Assembly (NCBI GenBank): GCA_030668825.1
Contig: DAOVET010000034.1
Location: forward strand, 1-25,294
Direction: 5' to 3'
Source of the DNA: Candidatus Heimdallarchaeota archaeon
GTDB taxonomy: Archaea > Asgardarchaeota > Heimdallarchaeia > Heimdallarchaeales > Heimdallarchaeaceae
Length of the DNA: 25,294 nt
Part shown: one piece after another, positions 1,868 through 17,871 of the stretch
How positions within the stretch are numbered: position 1 is the first letter of the stretch
Layout: each line of letters begins with the position of its first letter
Notes under the pieces: generated by a model
What the model saw: only the letters and a program-made list of their open reading frames with translations
The model's database searches: none
Told to the model about the DNA's origin: nothing
Position numbers and translations under genes: made by a program

Positions 1868-2887
1868 TCATTTCTTAAAATCTGATAATCGTTCATATTT
1901 GCGCTTTACAAAGGAATCTTCAAATTTTTCATGGAAGTATGATTCATCATATTCAATTTTATATTCGCGTTCCTTTGGAACTATAAGATTAATAGCGTCA
2001 TCAACCCTCTCGAGTTCAACTTTCAAACTCTCTTCATTATAGATTTCCCCTTCAGCTTCACAACAAAGAGGAACACCATGAGATTCAATTGTAATCTTTC
2101 TTCCTCTAGAAAACCATACACCTTCTAAGCCTAAATGGTTTCCAGGAATTGCTTTTACAAGCATGGCTATTCTACTGAATCCCTTCTTTCCATGGACAAT
2201 TCCGATTCCCAAATCCTTGTTTTTATCACAAAAAACGTAGTTACCTGGCATTACATGAAAGCCAGTAATATCATCTCCTAAAGCTACAAAGAAGTTTGAT
2301 AATTCATCAATCTTAATTGGCTCTTGATCATCTATCGTAACTGAGCAAGGAGTGTTTTTAGTTTTAATTACGTACTTCAGAGCAAGATAATTATATTTAA
2401 TCGCCCCGATTCTCATCCATTTCATTTCATGATGAGCAGCAGCTGCAGCTTCTCCTGAAAATCCTCCATCAGTCATATCAAATGAGTATGTTTCTTTATC
2501 TCCTTTACATTTAATTGCAGCGAATTTCTCACTGTGCCCTTCAGCTATGATGGCTAAACTTTCCTCCAAGCTATAGGGGATGGAATGAGTTTTGTGCCAA
2601 TCGCACATAGATCCAGCAGAGATTAAACCTAATGTCACATCTGGGTGATTGACAATTACATCGCCCATATTGGTAGCAGTTCCATCACCGCCAAAAGCAA
2701 CTAAAGTCTTATATCCATCCTTTATTGCTTTTTGCGCTAATTCCATCTCATGCCTTGGCCCCTCTGTGACAGCATGGTCAAAATTACCAATATACTCTTT
2801 AGCTATTTTAAGTGCTTTTTCTAATTTCTTGCCTAATTTGCCAGTATTCGCATTTGGATTAATAACAACAAAAGGGTCTTTAGTCAT
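1868..2887 (-). CDS. Diacylglycerol/lipid kinase family protein (YegS/DAGK-like)
   Basis: INPNANTG, FGGDGT, LGLISAGSMCD (variant of GT.ND) and C-terminal EAEGE (variant of DGE). Confidence 0.85.
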   Translation of the reverse strand: MTKDPFVVINPNANTGKLGKKLEKALKIAKEYIGNFDHAVTEGPRHEMELAQKAIKDGYKTLVAFGGDGTATNMGDVIVNHPDVTLGLISAGSMCDWHKTHSIPYSLEESLAIIAEGHSEKFAAIKCKGDKETYSFDMTDGGFSGEAAAAAHHEMKWMRIGAIKYNYLALKYVIKTKNTPCSVTIDDQEPIKIDELSNFFVALGDDITGFHVMPGNYVFCDKNKDLGIGIVHGKKGFSRIAMLVKAIPGNHLGLEGVWFSRGRKITIESHGVPLCCEAEGEIYNEESLKVELERVDDAINLIVPKEREYKIEYDESYFHEKFEDSFVKRKYERLSDFKK

Positions 2888-3021
2888 GTATTTCAGAGGA
2901 TGTTGACTTCTATATAAAATTAATGCAATAAATCATCTCTTAAGGTCTTGAAACATGGAAGACTCACCATTTTAAATGGATACATTTTAAAGTGTGATTT
3001 CTTTAAAGTTAGTTGATAATT

Positions 3022-3348
3022 ATGATTTGTCCTCAATGTGGAACTGAAAACGCAGATCACGCTAGATTCTGCGGAAAATGTGGTTTAGAACTAGAAGTTG
3101 CTCCTCAACAACCTGTTCAACAAGCTGCTCCTGCTCAACCTGTTCAACGTAAACGTCCTGATAAACTTGTTAGATGTTCAGATGATAAGCAAATTGGTGG
3201 GGTAAGTTCTGGTATAGCGAGATATTTCGGTATGGATGTTGGCTTAGTTAGATTACTAACCATATTAGGTCTTATATTTGGAACTGCTACTTTCTGGATA
3301 TATATTATCCTTTGGGCTGTTTTACCAGAAGAACAATGTGGAACTTAG
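3022..3348 (+). CDS. Zinc-ribbon + PspC domain membrane protein
   Basis: N-terminal CPQCG...FCGKCG ribbon, Pro/Gln linker, and PspC-like domain LVRCSDDKQIGGVSSGIARYFGMD..LVR...YIILWAVLPEE. Confidence 0.85.
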   Translation: MICPQCGTENADHARFCGKCGLELEVAPQQPVQQAAPAQPVQRKRPDKLVRCSDDKQIGGVSSGIARYFGMDVGLVRLLTILGLIFGTATFWIYIILWAVLPEEQCGT

Positions 3349-3354
3349 TATTAC

Positions 3355-4146
3355 CTATTTTTCATCCTTTTTTTCTTGAAAAAAATCTTCTAGTTGAGCA
3401 CTTTTTGATCTTTTTATAATTGGGAACACTTGATCCCAAGGAATTTGTTTAGCTTCTAAGTTATTTTCTTTTAGATATTTCAAGACCTTATCTGGAAAAT
3501 TAGGTGCCACCAGTATTCCTTTTACAGCTTTTTTCTCCTTTTCAACAAAATACTCTATATATCTTTTAAGTTGATGAGCATCTGCTGGAGTAGCATTTCT
3601 TTTCTTTACCTCTACAATTATCTCACCATTTTCCCCCACACCCCTAATATCTACAGGACCAACATCTGTGTTGTATTCAGTTCTGATTACTTGAAATCCA
3701 GGTTCAATTAAATCTGGATTAGTGACCAAATATTTCACTAAATCACTTTCATCTCCATAAATAGTCATTTCTATTTCATCTTGAGCATGCCATAAAGCAA
3801 CGAAAGCAATATGGGAAAAATCTATCACAAGAACTTCTTTTGTTTTTACTCGTTCAGTTAACATTTCTAAATGTGTTTCTTTTTGAGAAAATCTAATAGG
3901 ACCCGCTTGTGGTTTTTGCCAATTCAGAGGTTTCACACCAGTTGGTCCATGCATGATTATAGATAAATCTCTCTTAATCACCAATAATCTGTCCCCATCA
4001 CCTAAATATGATTTAATTCTTCCATCAAATGTTGCAGAACATCTTCCAGAAAGAATAATCATCTTTTCTCCTACAGCGGAATTTAACCTCTTAACAAGAT
4101 CAGGTAATGGATCTATAGATATTTGTTCAAAATTTGAGTGAAACAT
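3355..4146 (-). CDS. nucS: Mismatch-specific endonuclease NucS/EndoMS
   Basis: FDGRIKSYLGDGDRLLVIKRD, KPLNWQ, ESDL and GPVDI...IIVEVK...QLKRY nuclease motifs; C-terminal PIP-like LEDFF. Confidence 0.93.
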   Translation of the reverse strand: MFHSNFEQISIDPLPDLVKRLNSAVGEKMIILSGRCSATFDGRIKSYLGDGDRLLVIKRDLSIIMHGPTGVKPLNWQKPQAGPIRFSQKETHLEMLTERVKTKEVLVIDFSHIAFVALWHAQDEIEMTIYGDESDLVKYLVTNPDLIEPGFQVIRTEYNTDVGPVDIRGVGENGEIIVEVKKRNATPADAHQLKRYIEYFVEKEKKAVKGILVAPNFPDKVLKYLKENNLEAKQIPWDQVFPIIKRSKSAQLEDFFQEKKDEK

Positions 4147-8075: not shown

Positions 8076-9494
8076 ATGACTCAAGAAACTTACCGTATTT
8101 ATTCGAGGGTGCTTAAGTTTGGACAAAGGATTGGACTTAGAAGATTAATCGAGACACTAGTTTTTGGTATAACCATTTTTGCTATCACCTTAGTCTATTT
8201 ATATGTTATAACCTTCGCTCCAATTGGTTCAACAGGAAAATATATTTTCTTTCCACTAGGGTTCTTCTTTGAGTTAGTACTAATTCTTAGTTATATAGAA
8301 AATCACTACTTCATAGACATTTTTGGTGAAAATACAAACAAATTGATGTCAGTTTTATCAGTTATCTCATTAGTTGTAATAATTCTTTATGCCAGTATTC
8401 CTGGTTTTTATACTTTGGATCCTCCAAAAGTTCATCCACAGAGTATAGCTTTGATAGTCTTGTTCTTTCTGTTGAATGTAATTGAAACGGCGTATTTCTT
8501 GTTTTCAGTTCCACGAACCGACAGATCAAATACTTTTGGACTAGAATACCAATTTTCTATCCTTGAAAAAAGTTTAGAGAACAAAAGGCTGGGTGATTTA
8601 CATATAGATAAAGCTGTTACTAAGGGCTTGAATGCTTTGAAACGAAGAGTAACTGAAGAAGGATTTTGGGGAGATTTTAGTCCAACATTCGAAACAGCTT
8701 GTGTTTTAGAACTATTTAATAAATTGGGGTATAATGAGGATACTGAATGGATAATAAATACAGAAGAGGGTAAGAAAACAGTGACTCTTGGTAAATCCAT
8801 CGAAAGTCTAAAAGCTGTTGTTGAAACAGCTGAAACAATTGATAATTCATACGAGCAATTCTTTATTTTGTATGCTCTAAGTCTTTTTGATCCAACAATT
8901 TTCGATACGAGAAACGAATTAGTTAATGAGTTCTTTGATTCTATTTTTGAAGAAACAGAATGGGATTTCATCAATAAATTGAATAGATTCACTCCGAATC
9001 TTCGTTCTAGAACAACTCCATTACACATTATAATGAGCCATGTAGGAGATGTAACAGGAAATATTAAATTACTAGATAAGATGGCTAATTTATTCTCTGC
9101 TTCAATTGACATAGTGATCAAGAGAGGTTATGCACGATTCTCAACTTCACAAACAGGAAAAACACCGATAGAAATGTTTGCTAGAATGATGTTATCACTA
9201 CAAAATGTTAGAAGAGCACCTTCAAGAAGACAACAATTTGTACAAGCTGTTGTAGGTACCCAGTTCATCGAAGGATCTTGGGCAGCTAATATTGGTACTA
9301 CTGGATATGTAATCCAATCACTCCTCCCAAGTGAAACAGCAAATTCTTTACCACTAAAGAAAGCAGCTATTTACTTATCAGCAATTCAAGATAAAGAGGG
9401 ACTATGGAATGCAAGTATCGAAGAAACAACAATTGCTTTGATGGCATTGATAGGCTTACAAAAAATAACTGAACAAGAAACAGCTATAGTTTAA
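8076..9494 (+). CDS. Membrane protein with a C-terminal prenyltransferase/squalene-cyclase-type alpha-alpha toroid
   Basis: About 4-5 N-terminal TM helices, then QW-like repeats TEEGFW..FETACVL, QFIEGSW...TTGYVI and QDKEGLW..EETTIAL. Start set at ATG 8076. Confidence 0.65.
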   Translation: MTQETYRIYSRVLKFGQRIGLRRLIETLVFGITIFAITLVYLYVITFAPIGSTGKYIFFPLGFFFELVLILSYIENHYFIDIFGENTNKLMSVLSVISLVVIILYASIPGFYTLDPPKVHPQSIALIVLFFLLNVIETAYFLFSVPRTDRSNTFGLEYQFSILEKSLENKRLGDLHIDKAVTKGLNALKRRVTEEGFWGDFSPTFETACVLELFNKLGYNEDTEWIINTEEGKKTVTLGKSIESLKAVVETAETIDNSYEQFFILYALSLFDPTIFDTRNELVNEFFDSIFEETEWDFINKLNRFTPNLRSRTTPLHIIMSHVGDVTGNIKLLDKMANLFSASIDIVIKRGYARFSTSQTGKTPIEMFARMMLSLQNVRRAPSRRQQFVQAVVGTQFIEGSWAANIGTTGYVIQSLLPSETANSLPLKKAAIYLSAIQDKEGLWNASIEETTIALMALIGLQKITEQETAIV

Positions 9495-9537
9495 GCTCGA
9501 AAATTACATTTATATTTACCTTTTTTTAATTTCATTA

Positions 9538-10014
9538 ATGACTAAACTTGAAAAGAATGTCTACATAGCTTGTTCTATGATAAAAGCAAACCAGTTAGAC
9601 TTTTCTTTATTAGATTTTTTAATAGATTTTGTTGAAGAACAAGGATATCATCCTTTTGTACCTGGGAAGATGGAGGATGCTTCATCGAAAGTTGTTTTTG
9701 AGAGAGATATGAATTGGCTAAAGGATTCAACAAAGATAATAGCTGATGTCAATGAACCATCTCATGGAGTAGGGATGGAAATAATGTATGCCTATAAGCA
9801 TAAAATACCAGTAATATGTTTGTTGAATGAAAAGAACAAACCACTTTCTAGAATGGTAGAAGGAAGTCCAAATACAGTTATTATAGCCTATAGTTCCAAA
9901 AATGACTTAGAAGAAAAACTCAAGAATTTTAAATTGGATAAAACTAACATACACTTTTGTTCAAAGTGTAATGAAAGGACAATTCATTTGAAGAATAACT
10001 GCTTAATATGTTGA
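9538..10014 (+). CDS. Nucleoside 2-deoxyribosyltransferase / RCL-like N-glycosidase
   Basis: VYIACS, VFERDMNWL, IIADVNEPSHGVGMEIMYA and LSRMVEG motifs; C-terminal CSKC...CLIC. Confidence 0.88.
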   Translation: MTKLEKNVYIACSMIKANQLDFSLLDFLIDFVEEQGYHPFVPGKMEDASSKVVFERDMNWLKDSTKIIADVNEPSHGVGMEIMYAYKHKIPVICLLNEKNKPLSRMVEGSPNTVIIAYSSKNDLEEKLKNFKLDKTNIHFCSKCNERTIHLKNNCLIC

Positions 10015-10017
10015 AAA

Positions 10018-10091
10018 TGGCAGACCCAAGGCGATTTGAACGCCTGCCACAGGATCCAGAGTCCCGTATCCTTCCGCTAGACGATGGGTCT
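10018..10091 (-). tRNA. tRNA-Gln(CUG)
   Basis: Reverse complement: AGACCCA-TC-GTCT AGCGGAA GGAT-A-CGGGA CT CTG GA TCCTG-TGGC-AGGCG TTCAAAT CGCCT-TGGGTCT-G-CCA. A1-U72, G73, encoded CCA. Confidence 0.93.
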
Positions 10092-10201
10092 ATTTTGTTT
10101 GCCGAGTAGAGTAAAATAATAGTAAATTAAAAGTTTTGGTAGACGCCCCAAACCATTAAAGAGAGTAATTATAAATGAATAAAAAATCAATTAGATAAGG
10201 A

Positions 10202-10930
10202 ATGATTGGTATGAAAAGAATTTTAGTAACTGGAAGTAGTAGAGGATTGGGATTGGAATTTGTAAAACAGCTATTGGAAAAAGGAAATCAAATCATTGCA
10301 TGCAATAGAAATCCTCTAAAGTACCCAGACCTTTTGGAACTAAAAAATAAATTTGAGGATAAACTAGTTCTAATTGATTTAGATGTCTCAAGTAAAGATT
10401 CTATAGATAATGCCTTCACACTGATTTCTAAAGAAATAGATGGTTTGGATATACTGATTAATAATGCAGGTATCCGCTTTGGAGGAGAAGAGAAGTACTG
10501 TGATGAATTAGGTAAATTATACAAAGAGGATTTTGGTAAGATCTTCACAGTAAACTCTGTTGCACCAGTATTAATCGTGGAGAAGTTTTTACCATTAATC
10601 AAAAATGGAAGAGATCCAGTCATTGTTAACATTTCTTCAACCAGTGGTAGTATTGGTAGAAGAAGTCGTAAAGGAGGAGGATACAGCTATAGCGCAAGTA
10701 AGGCAGCATTAAATATGATCACTAAGGCTCTTTCTGTTGATTTGCACGAAGAAGGAATTACTGTTGTTTCAATCCATCCTGGTTGGGTTAAAACTACAAT
10801 GGAATATACAGAAAATGCTCCATTAACTACTTATGAATCTATAAAAGGAATGAGAAAGGTAATTGATACTCTATCAATAGAAAAAACAGGAAAATTCTTC
10901 GACTGGGAAGGTAATGATTTACCTTGGTAA
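10202..10930 (+). CDS. Short-chain dehydrogenase/reductase (C-factor/CsgA-like)
   Basis: TGSSRGLG, INNAG, NISS, YSASKAALNM, HPGWVKT and the C-terminal F.DWEG..LPW. Confidence 0.93.
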   Translation: MIGMKRILVTGSSRGLGLEFVKQLLEKGNQIIACNRNPLKYPDLLELKNKFEDKLVLIDLDVSSKDSIDNAFTLISKEIDGLDILINNAGIRFGGEEKYCDELGKLYKEDFGKIFTVNSVAPVLIVEKFLPLIKNGRDPVIVNISSTSGSIGRRSRKGGGYSYSASKAALNMITKALSVDLHEEGITVVSIHPGWVKTTMEYTENAPLTTYESIKGMRKVIDTLSIEKTGKFFDWEGNDLPW

Positions 10931-14804: not shown

Positions 14805-14993
14805 CTATTTTCCATGATTGAATTTTCCATTATTGAATTTGAACATTGCATATTTCAGCTTTTTTTCCTCGTCATCAATGAACTTTGGATATTTAATCAA
14901 GATTTTGTCTAATTCTCTATTTAAATTCTTCAAGTCTTCATCCATTTTAGAGAGAATACCATTCATTTCTTCTACAAGATTCTCTTGTTGCAT
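14805..14993 (-). CDS. Small hypothetical coiled-coil protein
   Basis: 62-aa ATG ORF with heptad pattern (LVEEMNGILSKMDEDLKNLNRELDKIL). Confidence 0.5.
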   Translation of the reverse strand: MQQENLVEEMNGILSKMDEDLKNLNRELDKILIKYPKFIDDEEKKLKYAMFKFNNGKFNHGK

Positions 14994-15068: not shown

Positions 15069-15245
15069 CTATTGTTCTCTATGCCCAGTAATTGTAGTTC
15101 GTATATCTGGTGAAAAGCATTTAGGACATACAGTTTTTGTTGTGAAAATTCCATCAACTTCTTCCTTTAGTCTCTTTTTCTCTTCATTGTTGAAACGATT
15201 CCCACAGTTATTACAGATAAATGCATCTGGTCTATTTATTGACAT
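15069..15245 (-). CDS. 58-aa zinc-ribbon protein missed by the ORF track
   Basis: Manual translation MSINRPDAFICNNCGNRFNNEEKKRLKEEVDGIFTTKTVCPKCFSPDIRTTITGHREQ; CxxC and CPxC pairs. Confidence 0.75.
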   Translation of the reverse strand: MSINRPDAFICNNCGNRFNNEEKKRLKEEVDGIFTTKTVCPKCFSPDIRTTITGHREQ

Positions 15246-15472
15246 GTAATCACTAGAACTAATATAATACTATCAAAATATAACTTTTGCTCTAAATAGA
15301 GGAAAAAAAGTAGTAAAATAACATACTTTGATGAAGGATCATTAGTATTCGGTTTTTGAAGCTAGTTATTCTATCTATCATAACTTTTGCAACCTTTGTA
15401 ATGCATCGAAAGAAGCAGAAAAATTAATATTGTAAGAAAAAAAAGCAAATTGAAGGATGTAAGAAGCAGATT

Positions 15473-16612
15473 TCAGATACAGCGATAAACAGCTGTAGGT
15501 CCTGTTTCTTTATATTCCTTCTTTGTTACCCAAAGTTTGTTAAAAGTTTTAAGAGAACTTAATATACTACCACCTATCCAAACAGAATATCTTCTTTCAG
15601 GAGGAGCAACTATCTTTACTTCTGTTGTATCAGGAACAAGTTCAGTTAATTCTCGGTGTAATCTTTCCTTTAATCCAGGAAACATTGTGGTTCCACCAGA
15701 TAAGACGATATTTGAAAACAGATCTCTTCTTAAGTCCACATCGCATCGCTGAACCATTCTATAGATTAGTTCATCAAGGGGTTCTTCTTCTGAACCGATT
15801 ACTCCTGGACTAAAAAGTAGCTCTGGAGCCATAAAGCGTTCTGCGCCTAGTGTTAAGGTTTCTCCGTCCGGCATTGTATAGTCTTTTTCCATACTTGATA
15901 CTCTTTCAGTTAGTCGTAGTTCTTTTTCTGGATTTAAAGCAACATAACAAAGTCTTTCTTTAATATCTAGAACAATTTCTCTTTCTGCGCTTGTTGTTAG
16001 GGAATATCCTCGTTGCTTTAAGAGAGTTCTTAGATAATTAGTAATATCTCTTCCTCCAATATCACATCGATGTATTGCATGAGATATTGCAAAGCCCTCA
16101 TAGACTGGAACAATGTGTATCACACCATCTCCTGCATCAACTACTAACCCTGTAGTTCTTCCAGATGCATAGAGTGAGAGTATTGCTTGCATAGAGATAT
16201 ACATTGCTGGAACATTGAACATCTCAAACATCATCTCAGCCATCTTTTCTTTATTTCTGTTATCGTTCAAAGGAGGTTCAGTTAGCATTATTGGATGCTC
16301 ATTTGGATTAACTCTCAAATCATTATAGAAAGTATAATGCCAGATATTTTCCATTGCTCCCCAATCTTTGACTTGCCCATGTTCAACTGGATAGACAAGT
16401 TTGAGAATACCTCGCATATTCATAGCCTCTTCTCCAATATAGTGTTCCTTTATCCATCCTTCAACATCAGGCATTACAACTGGATGTTTAGGATATCCAA
16501 TGATTGTTGGGAAAACACTTCTTGGTTGATCTTCTCCTGCAAATCCATTCTTCGTAAATCCAGTCCCATTATCTAAAACAAGTGGTTTTGTTTGAAATGC
16601 TTCAACTGTCAT
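15473..16612 (-). CDS. Asgard actin (Lokiactin-like, eukaryote-type)
   Basis: LVLDNGTGFTKNGFAGEDQPRSVFP, YPVEHG..DW, LSLYASGRTTG.VVDAGDG, NIVLSGGTTMFPG and APPERRYSVWIGGSILSSL. Start set at ATG 16612 (379 aa). Confidence 0.97.
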   Translation of the reverse strand: MTVEAFQTKPLVLDNGTGFTKNGFAGEDQPRSVFPTIIGYPKHPVVMPDVEGWIKEHYIGEEAMNMRGILKLVYPVEHGQVKDWGAMENIWHYTFYNDLRVNPNEHPIMLTEPPLNDNRNKEKMAEMMFEMFNVPAMYISMQAILSLYASGRTTGLVVDAGDGVIHIVPVYEGFAISHAIHRCDIGGRDITNYLRTLLKQRGYSLTTSAEREIVLDIKERLCYVALNPEKELRLTERVSSMEKDYTMPDGETLTLGAERFMAPELLFSPGVIGSEEEPLDELIYRMVQRCDVDLRRDLFSNIVLSGGTTMFPGLKERLHRELTELVPDTTEVKIVAPPERRYSVWIGGSILSSLKTFNKLWVTKKEYKETGPTAVYRCI

Positions 16613-17495
16613 CTTTTTTCCCCTTCCTTCTTGCATGGCTTTCTTTGACAGCTCTTTCTTTCTCATCTGTAATGGCTTTTTCCAAATTCTCTAGTCTTCC
16701 TTCAAGTTTTTCAATGCTTGAATCAAGTTTAGAATCTCTTTCTCTTCTAGATATTTCAGCTTGAACATTGTAAAGCATCATTAACTCATGAAAGACCTCA
16801 ATAAACTGATCTGTTCTATAGGGAGCTTTTAGAACTCGCCATCGTTTCACAGTTTCATCAGATCTTTTTTCCATGGTTGAGCGAAGTGCTATTTCATCTT
16901 CACTTGTTAATTCAACACCTTCTTCTTTGAGTTTCTGTATATATTCCTCAATTTTTCGATCTGTTTTGGGAGTTACTTTATCCTTAGTTTTAGCTAACTT
17001 CTTTGCTAGCTTCTCTTCAGGAGTTTTTAATCCAAGTTCAGATTTGCGTGAATCAAATTCTTGATCAACTGAAGGCATAACAGCTGTTTCCAAAGCAGAA
17101 ATTATAGGATTATAGTAACTTCCATAATATCTAGAAACTAGAGCATTTTCTATCCTAACTAAGTCCTCAAGTGGCATTTCAGTTAATTCATTTGGAGTAT
17201 ATCTAGCTGAACGAGCTTTAATCTGCTCTTGAATCTCAAGATATACAATTTGCTCATGGGGGATTTTTTTCTCATCGTATGTTGTCTTATCAATAGTTTT
17301 TTCCATTCTACCAACTCTTTCTTGTAATTCTACTATTCGTTTAACTCGTGATTTTTCCCAACTTTGTCTTTCTTCCTTCTTGCGCTCACGATAGGCCTTT
17401 TTTCGTTCCGCGTCAGTAGCATATTTTTTGGGTCGTCCTGGTCTTTTTTTTTCTTCGTCATTCATTTCAATCACTTTATTTTCGTCCCGAGACAA
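16602..17495 (-). CDS. AT-hook/basic-helix coiled-coil protein, putative DNA-binding
   Basis: KKRPGRPKKYATDAERKKAYRERKK followed by coiled-coil segments at both ends. Its end overlaps the actin start by 11 nt. Alternative ATG at 17465. Confidence 0.75.
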   Translation of the reverse strand: MSRDENKVIEMNDEEKKRPGRPKKYATDAERKKAYRERKKEERQSWEKSRVKRIVELQERVGRMEKTIDKTTYDEKKIPHEQIVYLEIQEQIKARSARYTPNELTEMPLEDLVRIENALVSRYYGSYYNPIISALETAVMPSVDQEFDSRKSELGLKTPEEKLAKKLAKTKDKVTPKTDRKIEEYIQKLKEEGVELTSEDEIALRSTMEKRSDETVKRWRVLKAPYRTDQFIEVFHELMMLYNVQAEISRRERDSKLDSSIEKLEGRLENLEKAITDEKERAVKESHARRKGKKDDS

Positions 17496-17664
17496 TATAA
17501 CGTTTGTCTCTAATCATTTAAAAACATTTTTGTCCTGAGACGAAATTCCCAAGTACTTACCGAGATTATTTAGAAGGAGTAATGAGGCAGTGGGACGTTT
17601 TAGTCAGTATGAAGCTTAAACCCACAATTCTATCATTTAAAAACATTTTTGTCCTGAGACGAAA
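17480..17664. promoter_or_regulatory. Repeated palindromes TTTYGTC-CYGA-GACRAWA plus a GAGACAA-N8-TTGTCTC inverted repeat
   Basis: Palindromes at 17480-17497, 17528-17545 and 17647-17664; inverted repeat at 17489-17510. They flank a TTTTAAA TATA-like element. Confidence 0.55.
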
Positions 17665-17747
17665 TTCCCAAGTACTCGAGATTATTTAGAAGGAGTAATA
17701 AGGCAGTGGGACGTTTTAGTCAGAATGAAGCTTAAATCCACAATTCT
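17513..17747. repeat. Imperfect tandem duplication (119 bp + 116 bp)
   Basis: Copies at 17513-17631 and 17632-17747 differ by one 3-nt indel and three substitutions. Confidence 0.95.
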
Positions 17748-17871
17748 TGCAGAACTTCCACGACGGATCAATTGGATGATGACATATCGGACAACGATTT
17801 TCTTCCACATTAACAGTAGTTCCTTTTAAGGCTTTATTCACCCTAAAGATTTTTCCAGGAAGTTTATGCAT
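17716..17871 (-). CDS. 51-aa zinc-ribbon protein missed by the ORF track
   Basis: Manual translation MHKLPGKIFRVNKALKGTTVNVEENRCPICHHPIDPSWKFCKNCGFKLHSD; classic CPxC-x9-FCxxCG ribbon. Confidence 0.8.
   Translation of the reverse strand: MHKLPGKIFRVNKALKGTTVNVEENRCPICHHPIDPSWKFCKNCGFKLHSD

What the first reader, a model, noticed from the sequence alone, without database searches (positions are those of the whole stretch)
15473..17664. Actin coupled to an AT-hook coiled-coil gene and iterated palindromes: candidate ParMRC-like actin-DNA system
Seen: a eukaryote-type actin whose start overlaps by 11 nt the end of a gene encoding RPGRPKK plus a basic helix and coiled coils, with repeated GTC-N4-GAC palindromes directly upstream. 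Established: type II partition systems consist of an actin-like filament, a co-transcribed DNA-binding adaptor, and upstream repeats that double as an operator; the GRP core is the AT-hook minor-groove motif. Inference: an undescribed adaptor could tether Asgard actin to DNA (segregation or nucleoid positioning), or act as an autoregulator of actin expression. Nothing here proves a physical interaction.
Basis: partly seen in the sequence, partly recalled or inferred. Interest (0 to 1): 0.82.

Follow-up and report, generated by a model that had tools for sequence, protein, structure and literature searches.

The report
Accessory Asgard actin under zipper-like regulator
A Heimdall-group archaeon carries a second, dispensable copy of its eukaryote-like actin that is transcribed together with a gene for a previously unnamed DNA-binding protein, which most likely switches the pair on and off through two conserved palindromes in its own promoter rather than acting as a plasmid-style DNA-segregation machine.

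Summary
Actin is at 15473-16612(-). Its ATG overlaps by 11 nt the stop of a 287-aa all-helical gene ("cc", 16602-17465) that begins with RPGRPKK. Three GTCYCRRGAC palindromes lie upstream.

New facts:
- This actin is not the core actin (that is on contig C31). It is a fast-evolving paralogue, "actin-2", found in 10 of 25 genomes of the genus and always directly behind cc.
- cc survives under purifying selection in at least 8 genomes that lack actin-2. The difference is a clean ~1.26-kb indel.
- Two palindromes bracket the BRE/TATA box and the likely transcription start in nearly all cc promoters. They occur nowhere else between genes in six genomes. The window's third copy comes from a local 119-bp tandem duplication.
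- cc belongs to an unnamed Heimdallarchaeial family: AT-hook, then a basic helix, then a zipper. The best match among solved structures is a bZIP, at borderline significance.
- In this family's paralogues a basic-helix residue (R, Y or H) co-varies with the promoter palindrome sequence.

Best reading (0.6): an autoregulated cc-actin-2 operon. A ParMRC-like tether fails every family criterion tested. The co-fold gave no verdict, so physical actin binding remains open. Interest is moderate.

The parts
15473..16612 (-). actin-2: an accessory Lokiactin-type actin paralogue, 379 aa, ATG at 16612, stop at 15473-15475
   Evidence: Pfam Actin 432.7 bits. It is 83% identical to the genome's core actin on C31. 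It forms a clade of 10 cc-linked actins with support 89/99.
16602..17465 (-). cc: a 287-aa protein with an AT-hook-like RPGRPKK, a basic helix (AERKKAYRERKKEE), a zipper-like coiled coil, a conserved helical middle and a long C-terminal helix. An alternative TTG start lies at 17495.
   Evidence: No Pfam family at E<=0.01. 58 homologues, all from Heimdall-type MAGs where named, apart from one labelled Thorarchaeota and one 'Asgard group'. Alignment A1. AF2 model all-helical. Sub-threshold bZIP and AT_hook hits.
16602..16612 (-). 11-nt overlap of the cc stop and the actin-2 start (translational coupling)
   Evidence: The same overlap occurs in G022 (L007). An 8-nt overlap occurs in the divergent pair of genus g2.
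17484..17493 (.). Palindrome P2 (minus strand GTCTCGGGAC), at -28..-19 from the ATG, over the inferred transcription start
   Evidence: Conserved at -25..-29 in 16 of 17 genus promoters.
17470..17474 (-). Shine-Dalgarno-like GTGAT in front of the cc ATG
   Evidence: GTGA is invariant across the 14 aligned promoters; the fifth base is T in 12 of them.
17514..17531 (-). TATA-like TTTTTAAATGA (17514-17524) and BRE-like AAAAATG (17525-17531)
   Evidence: A conserved block AAAAAT-N-TTTTTAWA lies directly 3' of P1 in 14 aligned promoters. Naming it BRE/TATA is inference from archaeal promoter consensus (recalled).
17532..17541 (.). Palindrome P1 (minus strand GTCTCAGGAC), at -76..-67 from the ATG, abutting the BRE
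17651..17660 (.). P1', an extra copy of P1 created by the tandem duplication
   Evidence: It is not present at this distance in relatives, except for one rearranged promoter in G023.
17513..17747 (.). Two units of a ~119-bp tandem duplication (17513-17631 / 17632-17747). Each unit carries the 3' end of the zinc-ribbon ORF, P1 and the BRE/TATA block.
   Evidence: the repeat finder families D1 and D2. A 134-nt unitig covering 17528-17661 spans the junction in runs X1, X4 and X6.
17716..17871 (-). 51-aa zinc-ribbon gene upstream of cc (neighbour, not shown to be part of the system)
   Evidence: Pfam Zn_ribbon_3 33.5 bits. 88-96% identical copies in 4 relatives.
15329..16586 (.). The ~1.26-kb segment (actin-2 plus its 3' flank) that is missing from otherwise collinear loci of relatives
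   Evidence: blastn of the window against L004, L006, L008, L009 and L010. Junction sequences read.

Best explanation
The window holds a two-gene operon, cc then actin-2.

Actin-2 is a dispensable, fast-evolving duplicate of the genome's core Lokiactin-type actin. cc belongs to an unnamed Heimdallarchaeial family of DNA-binding proteins. Its N-terminus joins an AT-hook-like GRP motif to a basic helix that runs straight into a short zipper.

I infer that a cc dimer grips the 10-bp palindromes GTCYC|GRGAC in the major groove, and that the AT-hook lies in the A/T-rich flanks. One palindrome abuts the BRE/TATA box and the other covers the transcription start. Occupancy would therefore control assembly of the pre-initiation complex and set the level of cc. 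Because actin-2 has no promoter of its own, it would set the level of actin-2 too. This is a local, autoregulated switch for an accessory actin.

Shown here: gene order, the overlap, conservation and uniqueness of the sites, the paralogue status of the actin, and co-variation between protein and site across the family.

Inferred: that cc is the protein that binds the sites, that binding is dimeric and bZIP-like, and the sign of regulation. I lean to repression, because P2 sits on the transcription start.

Unexplained: what the ~200-residue helical remainder of cc senses or binds, and why cc is kept where actin-2 is lost.
For: Operon:
- The overlap is 11 nt in the window and in G022.
- In 8 further loci the spacer is 26-79 nt, with AGGAGG and a TTG start and no TATA-like block.
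- The overlap is 8 nt in the divergent g2 pair.

Synteny: 10 of 10 full-length actin-2 genes, in 25 genus genomes, lie directly downstream of cc.

Paralogue status:
- Every one of the 31 family genomes has a core actin. The window genome's own is on C31, next to a gene that looks like prefoldin beta, in conserved synteny.
- The actin-2 clade has support 89/99, with terminal branches of 0.02-0.10 against about 0.003 for core actins.

Cis-elements:
- The footprint P1-BRE/TATA-~20 nt-P2-SD is conserved in 14 aligned promoters, while the DNA upstream of P1 is not.
- The sites lie at -71..-76 and -25..-29.
- 3 of 7 motif sites in the own genome are here, and 17 of 17 other near-sites are inside ORFs.
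- In five relatives, 11 of 11 exact TGTCYCGRGAC matches are at the cc promoter. The reversed-pattern control gave 2 matches in total.

DNA-binding module:
- The N-terminal profile's best match among 177,635 PDB sequences is a bZIP domain (7aw7_D, E=9.2e-4), aligned over the AYRERKK stretch and the following coiled coil. Pap1 follows at E=0.086 and GCN4 at 0.14.
- Sub-threshold Pfam bZIP_1/2 and AT_hook hits recur in 5 and 3 of 23 cc members, and in 6 (bZIP_1/2) and 3 (AT_hook) of 10 relatives scanned (nine short paralogues plus the g2 cc paralogue).

Co-variation, in 45 distinct family members with upstream DNA:
- 17 of 24 members with AYR carry GTC-N4-GAC sites. 0 of 21 members with AYY, AYH or AYN do.
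- 6 of 6 AYH members have GTAGTNNGAC at -57/-58.
- 8 of 8 members of one AYY/AYN subclass have GTA-N4-TAC at both positions.

Precedent: archaeal TFs with paired basic N-terminal helices exist, such as AmzR (bioRxiv 10.1101/2025.05.05.652248; abstract and sections 10-11 read).
Against: No binding or expression data exist.

cc is kept intact, with both palindromes, in at least 8 genus genomes that lack actin-2 (G007, G008, G017, G018, G021, G023, G024, G028). In those lineages dN/dS is 0.20-0.24, against 0.12-0.27 where actin-2 is present. No other promoter in six genomes carries the site. A regulator that controls only itself makes little sense, so cc must have a further role or further, weaker targets.

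All bZIP and AT_hook Pfam scores for cc itself are below the gathering cut-offs. The AF2 model is of low confidence (pLDDT 64).

The co-variation rests on few independent lineages (3-5 classes), and relatives share labels. 7 of 24 AYR members lack a clean GTC-N4-GAC site.

Another, unidentified factor could bind the palindromes.
Confidence: 0.6

Rival explanations
1. Actin-DNA tether or partition-like module. cc binds its unique chromosomal address through its N-terminus and captures filaments of actin-2, or of the core actin, through its helical body. The locus is thereby positioned or segregated. Autoregulation is a side effect, as with ParR/parC.
For: - The palindromes are a unique genomic address in six genomes, as a centromere-like site would be.
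- The cc-actin pair is old. A 28%-identical cc paralogue still overlaps a 37%-identical actin in genus g2. A second g2 cc is followed by a 31-aa actin C-terminal relic.
- cc is retained under selection without actin-2. That would make sense if it also works with the 83%-identical core actin.
- About 200 conserved residues of cc are not needed for DNA binding.
- Precedent: gene neighbours of archaeal actins bind them. Arcadin-2 binds crenactin (PMC5173319, passages read).
Against: - Every ParMRC family criterion tested fails (see Membership tests).
- cc is absent from 7 of 25 genus genomes (completeness 76-89%), from genera g3-g5 and from most of the class. It cannot be a core segregation system.
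- Its shorter paralogues share the same N- and C-terminal modules and the same promoter architecture, but pair with TPR proteins rather than actins. The shared modules are therefore not actin-specific.
- Only two sites are conserved, not an array.
- No fused cc-actin form was found among longer proteins (weak evidence).
Confidence: 0.1
2. Actin-sensing feedback regulator. cc binds monomeric actin-2 or core actin, and that binding changes its affinity for the operators. The operon's output would then follow the free actin pool. In function this would be an analogue of eukaryotic G-actin-controlled transcription (comparison recalled).
For: - Translational coupling and conserved adjacency hold in three diverged versions of the pair.
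- cc has a large conserved domain that is not needed for DNA binding.
- The paralogue pairs look like regulator-plus-partner modules, with a TPR protein as the partner.
- 5 of the 15 fixed differences between actin-2 and core actins fall in residues 43-52. By recalled actin numbering this is the D-loop, a surface used by actin-binding proteins.
Against: - No direct evidence of any contact.
- cc is conserved without actin-2, so actin-2 cannot be the obligatory ligand.
- The actin-2 and cc trees disagree. The G000 and G015 actins are sisters with support 100/96, while their cc proteins are about 50% identical. Partners have therefore been swapped without visible co-adaptation.
Confidence: 0.15
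3. No functional link beyond co-transcription, and cc is not the operator-binding protein. cc would be a structural or chromatin-type coiled-coil protein, and its promoter palindromes would be recognised by some other factor. Actin-2 would be a duplicated gene that happened to land in the 3' end of this transcription unit.
For: - Actin-2 is a clean, dispensable ~1.26-kb insertion/deletion.
- Its presence changes at least 4 times on the cc tree.
- The DNA-binding assignment for cc rests on sub-threshold similarity.
Against: - The co-variation between the AY[R/Y/H]ER residue and the palindrome sequence across 45 family members is hard to explain if the proteins do not read their own promoters.
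- The GRP-plus-basic-helix module is the most conserved part of the family. G10, R11, A24, Y25, R26 and K30 are invariant in the 23-row cc alignment; across the wider family G10, R11, P12, R21, A24, Y25, E27, R28 and K30 are invariant while position 26 varies (R/Y/H/N).
- All 10 actin-2 genes form one clade and all keep the position behind cc. A deeply diverged pair does the same in g2.
Confidence: 0.1

Closest known systems
ParMRC type II plasmid partition (ParM filament, ParR adaptor, parC centromere)
   Same: An actin-fold filament former is co-transcribed with a site-specific DNA-binding protein. That protein's sites lie in the operon's own promoter, and the sites are a unique address on the replicon.
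   Different: [quoted passage not shown] Here the actin is PF00022/Lokiactin-type on a housekeeping chromosome segment. The partner is all-helical and sits upstream. The sites are two inverted repeats. The 'motor' is dispensable while the DNA binder is kept.
Eukaryotic bZIP transcription factors (Pap1/Yap-type basic region; GCN4, AP-1)
   Same: A basic helix is continuous with a heptad coiled coil, and the target sites are palindromes with abutting half-sites. The best PDB sequence matches are 7aw7_D (a bZIP domain protein), 1gd2_E (Pap1) and GCN4. The residue that varies in the family (R/Y/H after AY) aligns with a conserved Arg of the bZIP basic region in the HMMER alignment. That this Arg contacts bases is recalled, not tested.
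   Different: All Pfam bZIP scores are below the gathering cut-off. An AT-hook precedes the basic helix. The zipper is short (about 3 heptads of I/L/V/M). A further ~220 residues have no bZIP counterpart. The N-terminal motif also occurs in small proteins whose residue composition looks bacterial to me (an impression, that library carries no taxonomy). Convergence is therefore as likely as homology.
[quoted passage not shown]
   Same: Both are archaeal regulators that lack a helix-turn-helix and use paired basic N-terminal helices to bind promoters (bioRxiv 10.1101/2025.05.05.652248; abstract and sections 10-11 read). GvpE as a bZIP-like archaeal activator is recalled; I saw it only in the search listing.
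   Different: AmzR carries PAS and GAF sensor domains and a disulfide-linked dimer. cc has none of these domains and no detected sequence relation to it (not directly compared).
Arcade cluster of Thermoproteales (crenactin with arcadins)
   Same: An archaeal actin is encoded next to small helical or coiled-coil proteins. One of them, arcadin-2, binds the actin's hydrophobic groove with a C-terminal helix (PMC5173319, passages read).
   Different: No sequence relation to cc was found. Arcadins are not known DNA binders with operators. The cc-actin contact is untested.
Lokiactin, the conserved Asgard actin
   Same: Actin-2 is 83% identical to the genome's core actin and matches Pfam Actin over its full length. 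PMC9834061 (passages read) describes one highly conserved Lokiactin plus divergent ARPs per genome.
   Different: Actin-2 is a second, near-canonical copy. It evolves roughly ten times faster, its presence is polymorphic between close relatives, and it is tied to a dedicated upstream gene. I found no description of such a paralogue in the searches.

Membership tests
ParMRC (type II partition) | ParM-family actin-like ATPase carried on a plasmid or mobile replicon | tested here: not met
   The protein matches Pfam Actin PF00022 at 432.7 bits and is 83% identical to the core Asgard actin. The 25-kb window carries housekeeping genes, including a Glu/Gln-tRNA synthetase, NucS, RIO kinase, ABC transporter and corrinoid methyltransferases. 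It has no replication or mobility genes.
ParMRC (type II partition) | ParR: a ribbon-helix-helix adaptor, usually encoded downstream of parM | tested here: not met
   cc lies upstream of the actin. The AF2 model has no strand: residues 1-17 are coil and the rest is helix. There is no RHH family among the Pfam hits, even at E<=1.
ParMRC (type II partition) | [quoted passage not shown] | tested here: not met
   The conserved state is two 10-bp inverted repeats about 46 bp apart, flanking the TATA box. The only direct repeat is a lineage-specific 119-bp duplication.
ParMRC (type II partition) | The adaptor binds the filament and couples it to DNA | not testable with these tools
   This needs co-sedimentation or reconstitution experiments.
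Lokiactin-type (core Asgard) actin | Full-length actin fold with near-eukaryotic sequence | tested here: met
   PF00022 covers profile positions 4-407 of 410, E=1.4e-129. It is 81-83% identical to the core actins of five genera.
Lokiactin-type (core Asgard) actin | It is the single, universally conserved copy of the lineage | tested here: not met
   The universal copy is on C31: present in 31 of 31 family genomes, with conserved synteny beside a gene that looks like prefoldin beta. The window's gene belongs to a separate clade found in 10 of 25 genus genomes.
bZIP transcription factors | Match to Pfam bZIP_1 or bZIP_2 above the gathering score | tested here: not met
   The window protein has no hit at E<=1. 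5 of 23 cc members hit bZIP_1, best E=3.7e-4. Short paralogues score 13-17 bits against cut-offs of 22.3 and 27.6.
bZIP transcription factors | Basic region continuous with a heptad zipper in one helix | tested here: inconclusive
   The AF2 model shows a single helix over residues 18-64 (pLDDT 73-85 over residues 11-50). Hydrophobic residues I43, L46, V50, M53 and I57 fall at a/d spacing, read from the sequence. The PDB profile search ranks a bZIP first at E=9.2e-4. Dimerisation was not tested.
bZIP transcription factors | Binds a palindrome of abutting half-sites as a dimer | not testable with these tools
   A suitable site (GTCYC|GRGAC) is conserved in the promoter and co-varies with a basic-helix residue across the family. 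Binding itself needs EMSA or footprinting.
AT-hook | GRP core flanked by basic residues, reaching the Pfam AT_hook cut-off (17.4 bits) | tested here: inconclusive
   The window protein has P-G-R-P-K-K but no Pfam hit at E<=1. 3 of 23 cc members hit sub-threshold. 1 of the 10 relatives scanned (nine short paralogues plus the g2 cc paralogue) passes, at 18.0 bits. The palindromes are flanked by T- and A-runs.
AmzR family | PAS and GAF sensor domains behind the basic N-terminal helices | tested here: not met
   No PAS or GAF hit appeared among the 25 families listed for the 23 cc members at E<=1.

The most novel reading that the evidence does not exclude
cc is a bifunctional protein of the closest archaeal relatives of eukaryotes. 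Its N-terminus would read one unique chromosomal address, and its helical body would bind Lokiactin-type actin, either actin-2 or the core actin. It would then either anchor that locus to the actin cytoskeleton or make transcription respond to the actin pool. Either would be an archaeal forerunner or analogue of actin-DNA coupling. In addition, its DNA-binding module (AT-hook plus a Pap1-like basic zipper) could be a true prokaryotic relative of eukaryotic bZIP factors.
Probability: 0.15. Interest if true: 0.85.

Novelty: new variant of a known kind. Interest (0 to 1): 0.55.

Why it matters
How Asgard archaea control their eukaryote-like actin is almost unknown. Work so far has addressed the conserved Lokiactin and its profilin and gelsolin partners.

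This locus offers three things:
- A second, near-canonical actin that nature switches between presence and absence among close relatives.
- A concrete candidate regulator with a defined two-site operator. The operator is only about 60 bp long and can be tested in vitro without culturing the organism.
- An unnamed family of zipper-like DNA-binding proteins in Heimdallarchaeia with a readable protein-to-site code: R goes with GTC..GAC, and Y or H go with GTA-type sites.

The third point bears on whether bZIP-style DNA recognition predates eukaryotes. If cc also touches actin, the locus becomes a rare handle on actin-DNA or actin-transcription coupling in archaea.

Tried and rejected
Approaches that gave no usable result:
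- Co-fold of actin-2 (alignment A2, 16 rows) with cc (A1, 23 rows) returned 'no answer' (score 0.28, mark 0.32; controls not run). I count it as neither for nor against binding.
- Foldseek of the cc model against the PDB: 0 of 21 listed matches at E<=0.001. The model itself is weak.
- ESM Atlas: no usable hit.
- Full-length cc profile against PDB sequences: only weak hits, the best a synthetic helix at E=0.025, with a bZIP at 0.13.
- Search for longer or fused forms of cc: none at E<=0.001 among 5871 candidates (weak evidence by the tool's own note). I did not search shorter forms with that tool.
- RNA evidence: no RNA holder is listed for the stretch. Run X17, labelled RNA-Seq but 'probably DNA', covered only parts of it. 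Nothing can be said about expression, the transcription start or co-transcription.
- Literature searches for 'Asgard + bZIP + archaea' and 'Asgard + actin + AT-hook' returned nothing on this family. 'Heimdallarchaeia + actin + paralog' and 'lokiactin/Heimdallarchaeota/actin-related protein' returned nothing on a second Lokiactin-type copy in the titles and abstract openings listed. Supplementary tables of those papers, which I could not see, may list actin copy numbers.

Ideas considered and dropped:
- That the palindromes are a terminator of the upstream zinc-ribbon gene. They keep their positions relative to the TATA box and ATG in loci that lack that gene's duplication.
- That actin-2 is an assembly artefact or contamination. 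It has collinear flanks, occurs in 10 genomes, and is spanned by unitigs from three studies.
- That cc regulates a regulon. No other site lies between genes in six genomes. Weak or half-sites were not assessed.
- A thymosin/WH2-like look of the conserved L-A-K..D..T-P-K-T stretch. This is recalled resemblance only, with no Pfam support among the listed families, so I do not use it.

Rows left out of analyses:
- The actin tree omitted partial actins at contig ends (for example G007:C144, G010:C75, G011:C7) and the ~490-aa ARPs.
- The cc tree omitted the G018 fragment, the G015:C56 fragment and the g2 'D' paralogues.
- The promoter alignment used 14 of the 17 genus loci with upstream DNA. It left out G023 (rearranged promoter), G007 (only 92 nt of upstream DNA before the contig start) and G015 (only 34 nt of upstream DNA).


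Full report
**What is there.** On the minus strand the window encodes, in this order:
- a 51-aa zinc-ribbon protein (17716-17871);
- a 287-aa protein I call cc (ATG 17465 to stop 16602);
- an actin (ATG 16612 to stop 15473);
- two small ORFs and a DUF389 membrane protein.

A metallo-beta-lactamase-fold gene diverges on the plus strand. The actin matches Pfam Actin at 432.7 bits. cc matches nothing at E<=0.01. The cc stop and the actin ATG overlap by 11 nt. The wider window holds housekeeping genes: an ABC transporter, NucS, RIO kinase, a Glu/Gln-tRNA synthetase, corrinoid and methyltransferase genes. It has no plasmid or virus genes. Homologues that carry a source name are 'Candidatus Heimdallarchaeota/Heimdallarchaeaceae' hypothetical proteins.

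**The repeats.** Three copies of GTCYCRRGAC lie upstream of cc, at 17484, 17532 and 17651. Two of them are one site copied by a 119-bp tandem duplication (17513-17631 / 17632-17747). The two units match 100% over a 45-nt block and 96% over a 71-nt block. The duplication also copies the last codons of the zinc-ribbon ORF and the TATA-like block. Unitigs from three metagenome studies span both the duplication junction and the cc/actin junction, so the arrangement is not an assembly artefact. One of these studies may be the source sample.

**The actin is a paralogue.**
- The assembly has two actins: C31:118-1227 (446 bits) and the window's (430 bits).
- All 31 genomes of the family have a copy of the C31 type. 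It sits next to a gene that looks like prefoldin beta, in conserved synteny, and is almost invariant, with terminal branches of about 0.003.
- The window's actin is 83% identical to it. It belongs to a clade of 10 sequences (support 89/99) with branches of 0.02-0.10.
- It shows 15 fixed differences from core actins. Five of them lie in residues 43-52, which is the D-loop by recalled actin numbering.

I call it actin-2. PMC9834061 (passages read) describes one highly conserved Lokiactin plus divergent ARPs per Asgard genome. A second near-canonical copy is not mentioned there, nor in the listings.

**Synteny.**
- cc was found in 17 of 24 other genomes of the genus and in 2 of 2 genomes of a sister genus.
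- All 10 full-length actin-2 genes (own genome plus G009, G013, G015, G016, G020, G022, G025, G027, G030) lie directly downstream of cc.
- In the window and in G022 the genes overlap by 11 nt. In eight loci a 26-79-nt spacer carries AGGAGG and a TTG start, with no TATA-like block. Actin-2 is therefore read from the cc promoter.
- In the sister genus a 246-aa cc paralogue (28% identical) overlaps by 8 nt a very divergent actin (37% identical). About 6 kb away a second cc (41% identical) is followed by a 31-aa remnant of an actin C-terminus. The pair is thus older than the two genera.

**But cc does not need actin-2.**
- At least eight genus genomes have cc with no actin behind it: G007, G008, G017, G018, G021, G023, G024 and G028.
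- In five of them (G023, G024, G008, G007, G017) blastn shows an otherwise collinear locus. Window 16586 to 15329 (~1.26 kb) is simply missing, and the next gene is the same small zinc-ribbon ORF.
- On the cc tree, the presence of actin-2 changes at least 4 times.
- The actin-2 and cc trees disagree. The G000 and G015 actins are sisters (100/96) while their cc proteins are about 50% identical. This points to recombination within the population.
- cc stays under purifying selection without actin-2: dN/dS is 0.20 and 0.24 in two actin-less pairs, against 0.12-0.27 in pairs that have it.

**The palindromes are a conserved operator pair.**
- In 16 of 17 genus loci with upstream DNA, GTCYCRRGAC sites lie at -71..-76 and/or -25..-29 from the ATG.
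- An alignment of 14 promoters shows a footprint: P1, then a conserved AAAAAT-N-TTTTTAWA block (BRE/TATA by recalled consensus), about 20 variable bases, then P2, then a GTGAT Shine-Dalgarno motif. The sequence upstream of P1 is not conserved.
- With the TATA block centred near -54, the transcription start should fall on P2 (inference).
- The sites are unique. In the own genome, 17 of 17 other exact or near matches lie inside ORFs. In five relatives, 11 of 11 exact TGTCYCGRGAC matches are at the cc promoter, and the reversed-pattern control gave 2 matches in total.

**cc belongs to a wider, unnamed family.**
- Full-length cc occurs only in the two genera. The survey covered 83 genomes of the class. 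In a library of 1.84 billion representatives there were 4 clusters at E<1e-30.
- Shorter proteins of about 200 aa share the N-terminal module (GRPRKY..AER..AY[R/Y/H]ERKK followed by a coiled coil) and the C-terminal helix.
- They occur in the own genome (C111:2067-2690) and, in several copies per genome, in two other Heimdallarchaeial families. They are usually followed by a 550-620-aa TPR protein.
- The N-terminal motif alone also occurs in small proteins that look bacterial by composition.

**Protein and site co-vary.** Among 45 distinct family members with upstream DNA:
- 17 of 24 members with AYR carry GTC-N4-GAC sites. None of the 21 members with AYY, AYH or AYN do.
- All 6 AYH members carry GTAGTNNGAC at -57/-58.
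- All 8 members of one AYY/AYN subclass carry GTA-N4-TAC at about -56 and about -111.

The number of independent lineages is small. Still, this is the pattern expected if each protein reads paired palindromes in its own promoter.

**What kind of DNA binder?**
- A profile of the N-terminal 66 residues finds a bZIP domain as its best match among 177,635 PDB sequences (7aw7_D, E=9.2e-4). The alignment runs across AYRERKK and the following coiled coil.
- Pap1 (E=0.086), GCN4 and AP-1 follow, mixed with generic coiled coils.
- Pfam bZIP and AT_hook hits recur but stay under their cut-offs, except one AT_hook at 18.0 bits in a short paralogue.
- The AF2 model has one helix over residues 18-64, with hydrophobic residues at heptad spacing.

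I therefore describe the module as an AT-hook plus a bZIP-like basic zipper. I do not file it as a bZIP. Zipper-like archaeal regulators have a precedent in AmzR (bioRxiv 10.1101/2025.05.05.652248; abstract and sections 10-11 read), which differs from cc in its PAS and GAF domains.

**How it most likely works.** A cc dimer occupies P1 and P2 and controls initiation at its own promoter. That sets the level of cc and, where present, of actin-2. This is a local autoregulated switch for an accessory actin (confidence 0.6). The weak point is that cc is kept, with its operators, where actin-2 is gone, and no other promoter carries the site. cc must do something more. This keeps alive two readings: that its ~200-residue helical body binds actin as a tether (0.1), or as a sensor of the actin pool (0.15). 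Neither was testable here, because the single co-fold job gave no verdict.

**Comparison with ParMRC.** I took the definition from PMC9426499 (passages read): a plasmid-borne centromere of direct repeats upstream of parM, a ParM ATPase, and a ribbon-helix-helix ParR. The locus fails each family criterion I could test. It resembles ParMRC only in logic: a filament gene, a site-specific binder, and sites in the binder's own promoter. The arcade cluster (PMC5173319, passages read) shows that gene neighbours of archaeal actins can be true actin binders, so the idea deserves a bench test.

**Verdict.** The finding is a new variant of a known kind: an unnamed zipper-like regulator family plus an accessory Lokiactin-type paralogue. 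Interest 0.55.

Noticed in passing
window 17513-17747: A 119-bp tandem duplication copies the last codons of the 51-aa zinc-ribbon ORF together with palindrome P1 and the BRE/TATA block. This gives the cc gene a second promoter-like unit 119 bp upstream. It is specific to this lineage. Unitigs spanning the duplication junction, and a 45-nt repeat unitig with 1.5-2.2 times the depth of neighbouring unitigs, appear in metagenome runs (the junction unitig in X1, X4 and X6; the repeat unitig shown for X1 and X6).
   Followed up: partly
own genome G000:C111:156-2690 (locus L067): The genome has a 207-aa paralogue of cc with the same N- and C-terminal modules (AYY type). GTA-N4-TAC palindromes lie around its TATA box. 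It is followed by a 618-aa TPR (MalT-like) protein. The same pairing recurs in other Heimdallarchaeial families, with up to 8 copies per genome.
   Followed up: partly
L033 (G001:C35:45500-58000), 2024-3896 and 9251-10300: In the sister genus, two cc cassettes lie 6 kb apart on one contig. One has a very divergent actin (37% identical) with an 8-nt overlap. The other has only a 31-aa actin C-terminal remnant behind cc.
   Followed up: partly
L004 (G023:C126), about 900-1056: In the closest relative that lacks actin-2, about 75 extra bases separate the TATA-like block from P2 (sites at -149 and -28 instead of -74 and -28). The promoter has been rearranged there.
   Followed up: no
L053 (G030:C391:1-1300): A third actin type, only 64% identical to actin-2 (427 bits to Pfam Actin), sits alone on a 1.6-kb contig of one relative. 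It might be contamination or a further paralogue.
   Followed up: no
L016 (G015:C50) versus window 15473-17465: The G015 actin-2 is 95% identical to the window's, but the cc in front of it is only 50% identical. A fragment of a window-type cc (86% identical) lies at the end of another G015 contig (L023). This suggests recombination between cc types, or a mixed bin.
   Followed up: partly
proteins P0083, P0088, P0091, P0096, P0102, P0113, P0116, P0127: The GRPRK[YW]..AER..AYRER motif also heads small (50-170 aa) proteins whose composition looks bacterial (high-GC-like). Some carry two tandem copies of the motif. This looks like a widespread, unnamed DNA-binding module.
   Followed up: no
window 15069-15245 and 14805-14993 (minus strand): Two small ORFs are conserved in relatives: a 58-aa zinc-ribbon-like protein and a 62-aa protein. 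They follow actin-2, or follow cc directly where actin-2 is absent. A T-run and a TATA-like block in front of the first suggest it has its own promoter.
   Followed up: partly
whole assembly G000: The loose pattern GTC-N4-GAC is under-represented genome-wide: 100 sites against about 237 expected from base composition.
   Followed up: no
family genomes, e.g. G022:C2:78936-80171: Most genomes of the family also encode an actin-related protein of about 490 aa (about 200 bits to Pfam Actin). Genera g3-g5 have a divergent 379-aa actin downstream of an ABC transporter, with no cc next to it.
   Followed up: no
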